Source: a virus. Taken from it: a stretch of DNA of 47,493 nt. The first letter of the stretch is position 1. Each line of letters starts with the position of its first letter. The stretch lies in UHGV virus genome UHGV-0021965. One strand, given 5' to 3'. A program made the position numbers. Shown in pieces: positions 27,001 to 30,000 of the stretch.

Positions 27001-30000
27001 GATGCAGACGAGCTGATCGCAAAGGGGCTGGCTCGCGAAGTCTGAAGGGGGCCACATGGCTGATTTCGATAATCTCTTTGATGAGGCCATGTCGCGAGCT
27101 GATGGCACTATCCGCAGTGTGATGGGCACAGAGGTAAAGGTGATGTCAGGCGTATTGTCTGGCATCACGCTGGTCGGTGTTTTTGATGATCCAGAAAACA
27201 TCGGTTATGCCAGTGCCGGGATTCGTGTTGAAGGTACCAGCCCGACGCTGTTTGTTAAAACCTCCACTGTCAGCCAGCTGCAGCGCATGGACAAACTGAC
27301 GATTAACGGGCGGCAATTCTGGGTTGATCGTGTTGGTCCGGATGACTGTGGATCCTGTCACATCTGGCTGGGTAACGGCTCTCCGCCAGCTTCTTCTCGT
27401 CGCCGTTAAGGAGCGCCTATGTCAATAAAAGGCCTTGAACAGGCGATAGAAAACCTTAACAGCATCAGTAAAACGGCTGTCCCGCGTGCGTCGGCGCAGG
27501 CTGTTAACCGCGTGGCAAACCGGGCCGTCAGCCGCAGCGTGGCAGTCGTATCAAAAGATACGCGCGTACCGCGAAAACTGGTAAAGCAACGTGCCAGGGT
27601 GAAGCGTGCCACGGTCAATAAACCTCGCGCGCTTATCCGTGTAAACCGGGGCAATTTACCGGCTATTAAACTCGGTACCGCAAGCGTGCGACTTTCCCGC
27701 AGAAAACGGGACAAGAAAGGGGCCAACAGCGTTCTGCGTATAGGACCGTTCCGTTTTCCGGGCGGTTTTATCCAGCAGCTTAAAAATGGCCGCTGGCATG
27801 TCATGAGGCGGACGTCAAAACCCCGTTACCCCATTGAAGTGGTCAGCATCCCGCTGGCAGCTCCATTAACTACGGCGTTTAAAGAAGAACTGCCAAAGCT
27901 TATGGAGTCAGATATGCCCAAAGAACTCCGGGCATCCCTTACCAACCAACTCAGGTTAATTCTGACACGATGAAACACAGCGATATTCGCAAGGTGATTA
28001 TTGACGCGCTGGAGAGCGCGATTGGTACTGACGCCATTTATTTTGACGGCAGACCTGCAGTGCTCGAAGAGGGCGATTTTCCCGCTGTTGCCGTTTACCT
28101 GACAGATGCGGAATACACCGGGGAAGAACTGGACGCCGACAGCTGGCAGGCCATTCTGCATATCGAAGTCTTTCTTGAGGCTCAGGTACCTGATTCTGAG
28201 CTGGATGACTGGATGGAGACGCGAGTGTATCCGGTTCTCGCAGAGGTTCCGGGGCTTGAATCCCTTATCACCACAATGGTTCAGCAGGGCTATGACTACC
28301 AGCGCGATGACGATATGGCGCTGTGGAGTTCTGCGGACCTGAAATATTCCATTACTTACGACATGTGAGGACCCTATGGCCACACCAAACCCGCTGACAC
28401 CAACAAAAGGTGCTGGTACCACCCTCTGGGTTTACACCGGAACCGGAGATCCATACGCCAATCCGCTTTCAGACGTTGACTGGCTGCGCCTAGCAAAGAT
28501 TAAAGACCTGCAGCCCGGCGAACTGACAGCTGAATCGGAAGATGACACCTACATTGATGATGAGAATGCCGACTGGACATCAACGATGCAGGGGCAGAAA
28601 TCAGCCGGCGAAACCAACCTGACGCTCGCGTGGATGCCGGGAGATTCCGGCCAGCAGGACCTGGTGACCTGGTTCGATGAGGGCACCGTGAGGGGATATA
28701 AAATCAAATACCCAAATGGTGTCGTCGATGTGTTTAAGGGCTGGGTGAGCAGCCTCGGTAAAACCATCACTTCCAAAGAGGTCATGACCCGCACGGCCAA
28801 AATCACCAACAACGGCAAACCATCGCTGGCAGAAGACAGCGGTACCGCGCCGATTGCAGTCACGGGAATCAGCCTGGATAAATCCACTGCGGCTGTGGCG
28901 ATTGCGGCCACAACGCAACTGGTGGTGTCTGTCCTGCCAGCAAGTGCGTCAGATAAATCCTTCCGCGTAGCCAGCTCTGATCCTTCAAAAGCAACGGTCA
29001 CAGTTAACGGCAATACCCTGACCGTCACTGGGGTAGCTGCGGGCACCGTCGAAATCATCAGCATGAGCAATGACGGTAACTTTGTGGCGATCTGCAAAGT
29101 CACTGTTTCCTGATAACCGGGGCGTGAGCCCCGTTCCCACCTGGAGTAAATATGTTTCTAAAGAGCGAACTGCTTGAAAGCAACGGCAGCAGCGTCACAT
29201 TGTTCCAGCTTTCGGCGCTGCAGCGTATTGAATACCTCGAATACCTGAAGCAGCTGGAGGCAGTTGAAGCAGGCGATTTTCAGGCAGCCATCACCCTCAC
29301 CGTAAAAAGTGGGGCGTTCCTCGTGGCGATGTCGCTATGGCACGGCCACGAACTGAAAGGCTCCCAGGGAGAAAATGCAGCGGCGGAAGTGGCAAAGATT
29401 CAGGATGAGGTCATGCAGTCATGGCCGACCGAACTTGTTGCCGAAGCGGAATATAAGGTGAAACTCCTGTCCGGGATGATTGCGCCGGTAACTGATGACC
29501 AGGCAGCGTCCGGCGAAGAAGGTAATGAACCCGCTGAACCCGCTACTGCGGAAAAGTCCTCGCCAGTGAGCTGAATTTTGCCATGAAACTGGCGCGTGAG
29601 TTCGGTCGCCCGGACTGGCGTGCCATGCTTGCTGGCATGTCCTCTACGGAGTATGGCGACTGGAAAATCTTCTATCAGGACAATTACTTTCATGATGTGC
29701 AGCTGGACGCTCACTTCTCCGGCTTGCTCTACACCATCTCAACCCTGTTTTTTGCCGATCCGGAGTTAACCCCGGACAGTTTCAGCATTCTTAATACTGC
29801 ACCGGAACCCATCGACATTGATGAACCGGATGACAATACGCTGATGGCGAAGGCTGCAGGTATTTCAGGAGGCGTGCGCTATGGCCCAGACGGCAGTCGG
29901 TGATCTGGTCGTTAACCTTGACGTTAACTCGTCGAAATTCAGCGAGCAGCTTAACTACGTCAAAAAAGAATTAAAACAGACCGGCAATGCGGCAAACGAC

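What the first reader, a model, noticed from the sequence alone, without database searches (positions are those of the whole stretch)
29538..29582. G/T frameshift site differs from the lambda heptamer
The T frame is -1 relative to G and opens at 29538, so a GT fusion must form within 29538-29571. The position matching lambda's G-GGA-AAG slippery heptamer reads G-GAA-AAG here (29550-29556), which weakens P-site re-pairing. Either frameshifting is less efficient, or another site or mechanism is used.
Basis: partly seen in the sequence, partly recalled or inferred. Interest (0 to 1): 0.45.

Follow-up and report, generated by a model that had tools for sequence, protein, structure and literature searches.

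The report
Known N15-type tail-chaperone frameshift site
The slip site that joins tail-assembly genes G and T in this lambda-like phage reads G_GAA_AAG instead of lambda's G_GGA_AAG, but this is the usual, conserved and already annotated site of the N15/HK225/phi80 group of phages, not an anomaly.

Summary
G (29152-29574) and the -1 frame T ORF (open 29538-29903) overlap by 34 nt. The only shift-prone sequence in that overlap is GGAAAAG (29550-29556, read G_GAA_AAG). It aligns base for base with lambda's G_GGA_AAG.

It is not new. The GenBank record of phage N15 (91% identical here) annotates the same heptamer as the "slippery sequence for -1 translational frameshift". The heptamer is invariant in HK225, mEp237, phi80, mEp043, a Klebsiella phage, a Providencia phage, and prophages of six other enterobacterial genera. 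G identity in these falls to 29-40%. The base before GAA is always G, although that codon varies (GCG, GTG, CTG, ACG, CCG). This points to a true heptamer with tRNA-Glu re-pairing on GGA.

G_GAA_AAG served as the "less slippery" control against G_GGA_AAG in vitro. A_GAA_AAG gave 20% against 57% for G_GGA_AAG in the dnaX context.

No alternative site, upstream SD-like element or conserved T start codon exists. A predicted 75-nt stem-loop starts 5 nt downstream and may compensate, but this is unproven. Verdict: ordinary and already known, with low interest.

The parts
28376..29113 (+). Major tail tube gene (lambda V / N15 gp13 homologue), upstream neighbour
   Evidence: PF16461 E=1e-70 and Big_2 E=2e-20; ORF list
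29152..29574 (+). Gene G, tail assembly chaperone, 140 aa, 0 frame
   Evidence: PF06894 Phage_TAC_2 E=5.5e-51; 99% identical to HK225 G, 89% to N15 gp14, 46% to lambda G
29538..29571 (+). Overlap in which the 0 frame (G) and the -1 frame (T) are both open; the shift must occur here
   Evidence: Frame walk: -1 frame TGA at 29535-29537, G stop at 29572-29574
29550..29556 (+). Shift heptamer G_GAA_AAG (P site GAA/tRNA-Glu to GGA; A site AAG/tRNA-Lys to AAA)
   Evidence: Sequence. Homologous to lambda G_GGA_AAG. Same heptamer annotated as the slippery sequence in N15 AF064539 10027-10033. Invariant in relatives
29556..29903 (+). T part of the fusion as read after the slip (GTC at 29556 onward, 115 codons plus TGA); predicted GT is 250 aa with junction ...PATAEK|VLASELNFAMK
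   Evidence: Translation; PF06223 Phage_tail_T E=1.2e-12 on the -1 frame product
29562..29636 (+). Predicted RNA stem-loop 5 nt 3' of the heptamer, a candidate unproven stimulator: outer 10-bp helix 29562-29571/29627-29636, inner helices 29590-29597/29618-29625 and 29599-29605/29610-29616
   Evidence: MFE -43.9 kcal/mol, z=-3.95. Only 0.6% of local 100-nt windows are as stable, and it is more stable than 97% of synonymous recodings. 90% of cells paired and 5 pairs with double changes on 34 junctions. The same fold is the MFE in most N15-, lambda-, Trabulsiella- and Entomohabitans-type sequences
29583..29585 (+). In-frame ATG of the T frame, used by some annotations as a separate T start; probably not a real start
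   Evidence: No SD at a usable distance in 29565-29582. The codon is CTG or CTT in lambda, Kluyvera, L053/L054 and Phytobacter homologues
29881..32397 (+). Tape measure gene (lambda H / N15 gp16 homologue), downstream neighbour, overlapping the end of T by 23 nt
   Evidence: PF06791 E=5.5e-71 and PF09718 E=3e-22

Best explanation
This is the programmed -1 ribosomal frameshift that makes the GT tail-assembly fusion of a lambdoid siphovirus with an N15/HK225-type tail module. Most ribosomes translate G to its stop at 29572 and make the 140-aa chaperone. A small fraction slip back one base on G_GAA_AAG (29550-29556). In the slip, tRNA-Lys (mnm5s2UUU) moves from AAG to the better-matched AAA in the A site. 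tRNA-Glu (mnm5s2UUC) moves from GAA to GGA in the P site, keeping two Watson-Crick pairs and a central G.U. Translation then continues from GTC at 29556 through the T frame to 29903, giving a 250-aa GT protein. As in lambda, the G part should bind the tape measure protein and the T part should recruit the tail tube protein. Shown here: the gene order, the frames, the homology, the single possible site and its strong conservation. Inferred: the tandem-slip mechanism, a low efficiency probably below lambda's intrinsic level, and possible help from the downstream stem-loop 29562-29636.
For: Gene order V-G-T-H with Pfam matches to lambda G, T, V and H families. T is in the -1 frame and open only from 29538. 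GGAAAAG aligns with lambda's GGGAAAG. N15's record annotates the identical heptamer as the slip site. The heptamer is unchanged in 53 of 54 complete IMG/VR junctions. It is also unchanged in Trabulsiella, Kluyvera, Entomohabitans, Rahnella, Kosakonia and Phytobacter prophages, and in phi80, mEp043, Klebsiella phage Kp4865-4 and Providencia phage PSTCR8lys. In Rahnella, Klebsiella and Providencia the overlap is only 25 nt and holds nothing else shift-prone. The base 5' of GAA is always G across five different preceding codons. GAA is never GAG, and the AAG codon is never AAA. Published data show GAA_AAG shifts measurably: A_GAA_AAG 20% against G_GGA_AAG 57% and A_AAA_AAG 81% in the dnaX context. 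A_AAG is the most shift-prone tetramer in E. coli.
Against: No experiment on this phage or on N15 could be read here. In a reconstituted system without mRNA structure, G_GAA_AAG gave mainly 0-frame product, so the efficiency could be very low without a stimulator. The same heptamer occurs in the shift-prone frame in other probable genes of the window (8536, 33169, 40815 on +; 43161 and 22698 on -), so the word alone does not mark a programmed site. One relative (L033) has G_GCA_AAG, which suggests P-site re-pairing is not strictly required.
Confidence: 0.85

Rival explanations
1. Single-tRNA (tetramer or hexamer, NNA_AAG) slippage. Only tRNA-Lys re-pairs from AAG to AAA. tRNA-Glu merely releases the third base of GAA without productive re-pairing on GGA, as described for CGA_AAG (B. 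subtilis cdd, IS1222).
For: [quoted passage not shown] NNA_AAG shifting is documented in the Atkins 2016 review. A_GAA_AAG, A_ACA_AAG and A_AUA_AAG give similar values of 20-29% in the dnaX context. Relative L033 carries G_GCA_AAG.
Against: The 5' G is invariant although the codon that supplies it changes among GCG, GTG, CTG, ACG and CCG. That is unexplained if position 1 plays no part. By the rule summarised in the review, restricted-wobble tRNAs such as tRNA-Glu (mnm5s2U34) should be poor partners for hexamer-type shifting (the class of tRNA-Glu is from general knowledge).
Confidence: 0.25
2. The downstream stem-loop 29562-29636 is a functional stimulator that compensates for the weaker heptamer by slowing translocation while the heptamer sits in the P and A sites.
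For: The spacer is 5 nt. MFE is -43.9 kcal/mol with z=-3.95. The region is among the 0.6% most stable local windows and is more stable than 97% of synonymous recodings. The homologous fold is the MFE in most N15-, lambda-, Trabulsiella- and Entomohabitans-type sequences. A-U to G-C and other double changes occur. The Leu codon CTT, whose two T's lie in the outer helix, is kept in 30 of 34 junctions. Slow translocation raises shifting on G_GAA_AAG.
Against: The region encodes the conserved T N-terminus (KLAREFGRPDWRAMLAGM), so sequence conservation is confounded. The double changes trace to perhaps two events. The outer helix is lost in Rahnella and Phytobacter, and folds are not distinctive in Kluyvera, L053/L054 and Providencia. 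For the lambda gpG cluster, Sharma et al. found a hairpin in only 51% of genes, no more structured than average (ddG/nt 0.020 against a 0.09 threshold). No Rfam family matches.
Confidence: 0.35
3. T is made on its own from the ATG at 29583, as several genome annotations imply, and no frameshift is needed.
For: An in-frame ATG exists at 29583. HK225, mEp237 and RefSeq E. coli records annotate T from that ATG.
Against: No Shine-Dalgarno sequence lies 5-10 nt upstream. The ATG is CTG or CTT in lambda, Kluyvera, L053/L054 and Phytobacter homologues. The -1 frame stays open upstream to just 5' of the heptamer in every relative. In lambda, gpGT is made by -1 frameshifting and the G:GT ratio is critical for tail assembly (review). 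That no free gpT is made in lambda is recalled from Levin 1993, which could not be read here.
Confidence: 0.04
4. Artefact or other route: a sequencing error at 29551-29552, transcriptional slippage on the A run, or a different shift site.
For: None beyond the one-base difference from lambda.
Against: The identical heptamer is found in more than 50 independent sequences. The A run is only 4 bases, far below the runs known to support transcriptional slippage (general knowledge). No other X_XXY_YYZ or Z_ZZN motif lies in 29538-29571.
Confidence: 0.02

Closest known systems
Phage N15 genes 14/15 (GenBank AF064539) and the near-identical HK225 and mEp237 G/GT genes
   Same: Same gene order, 91-98% nucleotide identity across G-T, the same heptamer GGAAAAG at the same position, and the same overlap and downstream sequence. 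N15's record explicitly marks GGAAAAG (10027-10033) as the slippery sequence for the -1 frameshift.
   Different: Only a few point differences, such as GCT against GTT two codons upstream and TCC against CCC just downstream. HK225 and mEp237 annotate T from the internal ATG instead of as a fusion.
Phage lambda G/GT frameshift at G_GGA_AAG (Levin, Hendrix and Casjens 1993; Xu, Hendrix and Duda 2004, 2013, 2014)
   Same: Homologous G (46% identity) and T. The slip site sits at the homologous codons. A_AAG with tRNA-Lys occupies the A site. The -1 direction, the position between tail tube and tape measure genes, and the downstream sequence and predicted fold are similar.
   Different: The P-site codon is GAA (tRNA-Glu) rather than GGA (tRNA-Gly), so the G.U formed after the slip is at the second anticodon-codon position instead of the third. 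Both frames encode Gly-Lys in lambda, whereas here the frames differ (E-K against G-K). GT is 250 aa against 279 aa (lambda length from Sharma 2014 Table S6). The outer helix of the predicted stem-loop is 10 bp with a 5-nt spacer here, against 8 bp with a 7-nt spacer in lambda.
NNA_AAG / A_AAG shift sites (B. subtilis cdd A_CGA_AAG, IS1222 G_CGA_AAG; Licznar et al. 2003, as summarised in Atkins et al. 2016)
   Same: The driver is tRNA-Lys moving from AAG to AAA, and the preceding codon ends in A.
   Different: Here a conserved 5' G permits near-cognate re-pairing of the P-site tRNA, so the site behaves as an imperfect heptamer. tRNA-Glu is not an extended-wobble tRNA.
E. coli dnaX A_AAA_AAG signal, and Stx1-prophage G/T homologues
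   Same: The same A-site codon. Stx1-converting phages carry A_AAA_AAG at the homologous G/T position. A stem-loop close downstream is part of the dnaX signal.
   Different: No SD-like element lies 6-17 nt upstream here (using the motif list). The stem-loop is only predicted. The expected efficiency is a few per cent or less, not about 50-80%.

Membership tests
Conserved -1 frameshift of tail assembly chaperone genes in long-tailed dsDNA phages (lambda G/GT type) | Two ORFs lying between the major tail (tube) gene and the tape measure gene | tested here: met
   V-like 28376-29113, G 29152-29574, T frame 29538-29903, H-like 29881-32397
Conserved -1 frameshift of tail assembly chaperone genes in long-tailed dsDNA phages (lambda G/GT type) | The second ORF is in the -1 frame, overlaps the 3' end of the first and lacks a conserved start of its own | tested here: met
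   Frame walk. The ATG at 29583 has no SD and is not conserved
Conserved -1 frameshift of tail assembly chaperone genes in long-tailed dsDNA phages (lambda G/GT type) | Sequence homology to lambda gpG and gpT | tested here: met
   PF06894 E=5.5e-51; PF06223 E=1.2e-12; 46% identity to lambda G
Conserved -1 frameshift of tail assembly chaperone genes in long-tailed dsDNA phages (lambda G/GT type) | A canonical X_XXY_YYZ slippery heptamer in the overlap | tested here: not met
   G_GAA_AAG has XXX = GGA, so it is not canonical. The YYZ half (A_AAG) is canonical. The site is the homologue of lambda's heptamer and is conserved. This is an imperfect heptamer, so the strict motif rule fails while the homology-based membership stands.
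Conserved -1 frameshift of tail assembly chaperone genes in long-tailed dsDNA phages (lambda G/GT type) | A GT fusion protein made at a few per cent of G and needed for tail assembly | not testable with these tools
   Needs protein analysis or reporter assays
Tetramer/hexamer A_AAG (NNA_AAG) shift sites | A_AAG in the 0 frame with tRNA-Lys able to re-pair on AAA | tested here: met
   GAA AAG at 29551-29556 in the G frame
Tetramer/hexamer A_AAG (NNA_AAG) shift sites | No constraint on the base 5' of the NNA codon (P-site tRNA does not re-pair) | tested here: not met
   The 5' base is G in every G_GAA_AAG lineage, across the codons GCG, GTG, CTG, ACG and CCG
dnaX/IS-type stimulated -1 frameshift signals | SD-like element (GAGG, GGAG, AGGA, GGNGG, AGGKG) 6-17 nt upstream of the motif | tested here: not met
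   None in 29520-29549. The nearest is AAGG at 29519-29522, about 28 nt upstream, and it is changed to AACG in N15 (motif list)
dnaX/IS-type stimulated -1 frameshift signals | A stable downstream hairpin or pseudoknot 5-9 nt from the motif, conserved and required | tested here: inconclusive
   A predicted stem-loop with a 5-nt spacer is unusually stable and partly conserved with some covariation. It is confounded by coding constraints and absent in some lineages. No functional test was possible.

The most novel reading that the evidence does not exclude
A large clade of lambdoid phages (N15, HK225, phi80, mEp043, and Klebsiella, Providencia and Rahnella relatives) relies on a heptamer that ribosome biochemists use as a poorly slippery control. 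Its function would depend on second-position G.U re-pairing of tRNA-Glu plus a compensating downstream stem-loop placed 5 nt away. Both slipping tRNAs carry mnm5s2U34, so the G:GT ratio in this clade would be more sensitive to the host's 2-thiouridine pathway than lambda's is. Because the two frames encode E-K and G-K, the junction peptide would also reveal the timing of the slip, which lambda cannot show.
Probability: 0.3. Interest if true: 0.4.

Novelty: already known. Interest (0 to 1): 0.15.

Why it matters
The practical value is small. It confirms that G and T in this phage should be annotated as a G/GT frameshift pair with the slip at 29550-29556. HK225, mEp237 and RefSeq prophage records instead list T as a free-standing gene. 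The mechanistic interest is modest. The site is a natural, strongly conserved shift site with near-cognate second-position re-pairing in the P site. It could serve as a test case for thermodynamic models of -1 frameshifting, which so far lack second-position data (Bock et al. 2019 discussion). It could also test whether a downstream structure tunes the G:GT ratio.

Tried and rejected
1. Other shift sites in 29538-29571: the 0-frame codons are GAA CCC GCT ACT GCG GAA AAG TCC TCG CCA GTG AGC, and none but A_AAG allows re-pairing in the -1 frame.

2. Upstream SD-like stimulator: none at 6-17 nt, and the nearest AAGG is not conserved.

3. Promoter or terminator signals around the junction: none found.

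4. Known RNA families: only a chance Hammerhead_II hit at E=1.6.

5. Phage-encoded tRNAs that could alter decoding: none in the window.

6. A clean correlation between a weak heptamer and a stronger downstream structure was rejected as a firm claim. N15-, phi80-, mEp043- and Klebsiella-type junctions fold at -43 to -50 kcal/mol, against -35 to -41 for lambda and Stx types. However, Kluyvera, L053/L054, Phytobacter and Providencia G_GAA_AAG junctions fold no better than lambda.

7. Primary papers (Levin 1993, Xu 2004 and 2013, Licznar 2003) could not be opened. Statements about them rest on reviews or on memory, and are marked as such.

8. A literature search for GGAAAAG as a tail-gene slip site found no paper on N15-type phages.
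Full report
**What is in the sequence**

The region is the tail-assembly block of a lambdoid siphovirus. The genes in order are:
- a tail tube gene (28376-29113; PF16461 plus Big_2);
- G (29152-29574, 140 aa; PF06894, E=5.5e-51);
- an ORF in the -1 frame whose product matches lambda T (PF06223, E=1.2e-12);
- a tape measure gene (29881-32397; PF06791 plus PF09718).

The -1 frame has a TGA at 29535-29537 and is open from 29538 to the TGA at 29901-29903. G stops at 29572-29574.

In the G frame this stretch reads GAA CCC GCT ACT GCG GAA AAG TCC TCG CCA GTG AGC TGA. The only place where tRNAs can re-pair one base back is G_GAA_AAG at 29550-29556. Alignment with lambda puts it exactly on lambda's G_GGA_AAG.

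**Whether it is unusual**

It is not unusual. The G-T segment is 97.9% identical to phage HK225 and about 91% identical to N15 and mEp237. The wider structural module is 91-95% identical to these phages.

The GenBank record of N15 (AF064539) carries a misc_feature at 10027-10033 labelled "slippery sequence for -1 translational frameshift". In the alignment that feature is the same GGAAAAG.

The heptamer is kept across a broad set of relatives:
- Of the 54 IMG/VR loci holding a complete G/T junction, 53 keep GGAAAAG. One (L033) has GGCAAAG.
- Prophages of Trabulsiella, Kluyvera, Entomohabitans, Rahnella, Kosakonia and Phytobacter keep it, with G proteins 38-57% identical to the query.
- phi80, mEp043, Klebsiella phage Kp4865-4 and Providencia phage PSTCR8lys keep it. 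The Providencia G protein is 29% identical.

Lambda, its many near-identical prophage copies, an E. albertii prophage and an Stx2a phage have G_GGA_AAG. Stx1 phages have A_AAA_AAG at the same place. G_GAA_AAG is thus the most widely spread state in this family, and the lambda heptamer is the version of one branch. In E. coli complete genomes the N15-type G-T segment is found in 31 of 5426 genomes.

**Evidence that the heptamer is under selection**

In the G_GAA_AAG lineages the codon before GAA varies in amino acid: GCG, GTG, CTG, ACG and CCG. Its third base is always G. Glu is always GAA, never GAG. The AAG codon is never AAA.

In Rahnella, Klebsiella and Providencia relatives the overlap of the two frames is only 25 nt. 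It contains the heptamer and nothing else shift-prone. In Providencia the heptamer is followed directly by the G stop codon.

These facts locate the shift on the heptamer. They also argue that position 1 matters, meaning the P-site tRNA re-pairs.

**Mechanism**

After Glu and Lys are decoded, tRNA-Lys (anticodon mnm5s2UUU) can move from AAG to AAA, which it reads better. tRNA-Glu (mnm5s2UUC) can move from GAA to GGA. That keeps G-C and A-U pairs at positions 1 and 3 and forms a G.U at position 2.

In lambda, tRNA-Gly moves from GGA to GGG, so the G.U lies at the wobble position. Both sites therefore keep two Watson-Crick pairs and one G.U. The difference is where the G.U lies. This step is inference from the sequence and from known anticodons.

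Published measurements bear on it:
- In the dnaX context, with its stimulators, A_AAA_AAG gave 81%, G_GGA_AAG 57% and A_GAA_AAG 20%. These are Tsuchihashi and Brown values tabulated by Bock et al. 2019.
- A_AAG is the most shift-prone tetramer in E. coli (Sharma et al. 2014).
- NNA_AAG sites are used naturally (Atkins et al. 2016).
- Peng et al. 2019 used AUG_GAA_AAG, exactly this heptamer, as their "less slippery" sequence. In a purified system without mRNA structure it gave mainly 0-frame product at all EF-G concentrations, while G_GGA_AAG shifted readily. It shifted more with slow EF-G mutants.

The suggestion of another site or mechanism is not. Lambda needs only a G:GT ratio of about 30:1, so a weak site may be enough.

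**Predicted product**

Slipping on the heptamer gives a 250-aa GT protein with the junction ...EPATAEK|VLASELNFAMKLAREFGRPDW.... In lambda both frames encode Gly-Lys. Here the 0 frame encodes Glu-Lys and the -1 frame Gly-Lys, so a junction peptide would show whether the slip follows or precedes decoding of GAA.

**A possible stimulator**

Folding 29557-29656 gives a stem-loop at 29562-29636. It has a 10-bp outer helix that starts 5 nt after the heptamer and two inner helices. The MFE is -43.9 kcal/mol and z=-3.95 against dinucleotide shuffles.

Points in its favour:
- Only 0.6% of 100-nt windows across 27-34 kb are as stable.
- The native sequence is more stable than 97% of synonymous recodings of the T frame.
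- The homologous fold is the predicted MFE in most N15-, lambda-, Trabulsiella- and Entomohabitans-type junctions.
- On 34 distinct junctions, 90% of cells pair and five pairs show changes on both sides. For example, A-U becomes G-C at columns 16/84 in the lambda branch and in Entomohabitans. No shuffle reached the observed covariation score.

Points against it:
- The region encodes the conserved start of the T domain.
- The double changes trace to few events.
- The outer helix is lost in Rahnella and Phytobacter. Folds are undistinguished in Kluyvera, L053/L054 and Providencia.
- For the lambda gpG cluster, Sharma et al. found a hairpin in only 51% of genes, no more structured than average.
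- Lambda's own segment gives z=-1.55.
- No Rfam family matches.

I rate a stimulatory role at about one in three. No SD-like element lies 6-17 nt upstream.

**Rivals**

- Independent translation of T from the ATG at 29583 is unlikely. There is no ribosome binding site, and the ATG is CTG or CTT in several homologues.
- Transcriptional slippage is unlikely on a run of four A's.
- A sequencing error is excluded by the many independent copies.
- Single-tRNA slippage remains possible as a mechanistic detail. The L033 variant G_GCA_AAG and the in vitro data favour it. The invariant 5' G argues against it.

**Limits**

Levin 1993, Xu 2004 and 2013, Licznar 2003 and the N15 genome paper could not be opened. 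What is said about them comes from reviews, from the N15 GenBank annotation, or from memory. I found no experimental measurement for N15-type phages.

**Verdict**

This is a correct observation of a known, annotated and conserved variant of the lambda G/GT frameshift site. Novelty: already known. Interest: low. The only open point worth a bench test is whether the weaker heptamer is helped by the downstream stem-loop.

Noticed in passing
window 29527-29544: A perfect 9-bp tandem duplication, GAACCCGCT GAACCCGCT (EPA-EPA in G). Each copy puts a TGA in the -1 frame (29526-29528 and 29535-29537), and the second sets the 5' limit of the G/T overlap. Relative L014 has a single copy and a 137-aa G.
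   Followed up: partly
window 8536, 33169, 40815 (+); 43161, 22698 (-): The same heptamer lies in the shift-prone frame (G_GAA_AAG) inside other long open frames, for example the lambda L-like gene 32747-33502. In each case a -1 frame stop follows within 1-16 codons. The word alone is therefore not avoided in this genome, which fits a low intrinsic slipperiness.
   Followed up: partly
window 29118-29133: A V-G intergenic hairpin, CGGGGC-GTGA-GCCCCG, with no T run after it. N15's record annotates the equivalent as a putative rho-independent terminator. The consensus terminator scan did not call it.
   Followed up: no
L002 (HK225), L003 (mEp237), L175 (E. coli MB06232 RefSeq): T is annotated as a separate CDS starting at the internal ATG. 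In the RefSeq prophage it is flagged as a partial pseudogene. None of these records shows a G/GT frameshift fusion.
   Followed up: yes
L065-L075, L077, L078 (genome contigs): Lambda G/T junction sequences, identical to lambda's or carrying only the same variant as lambda-like prophage copies, sit on mostly low-coverage contigs of unrelated organisms such as Neobacillus, Oceanobacillus, Kitasatospora, Pseudomonas, Shewanella and Leeuwenhoekiella. This almost certainly reflects lambda DNA contamination of those assemblies.
   Followed up: no
L180 (Stx1a-converting phage Stx1_120412), L181 (Providencia phage PSTCR8lys): At the homologous G/T position Stx1 phages carry the dnaX-type heptamer A_AAA_AAG. 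In the Providencia phage G_GAA_AAG is followed immediately by the G stop codon TAG.
   Followed up: partly
window 29590-29625 and homologues: The inner hairpin UGGCGCGUGAGUUCGG...CCGGACUGGCGUGCCA arises from the near-palindromic coding of L-A-R ... W-R-A in the T N-terminus. It is retained from lambda to phi80 and partly in Providencia. It is unclear whether the RNA or the protein is what is conserved.
   Followed up: partly
window 29881-29903: The tape measure gene start (ATG 29881) overlaps the end of the T frame by 23 nt in a different frame, as in N15 and HK225.
   Followed up: no
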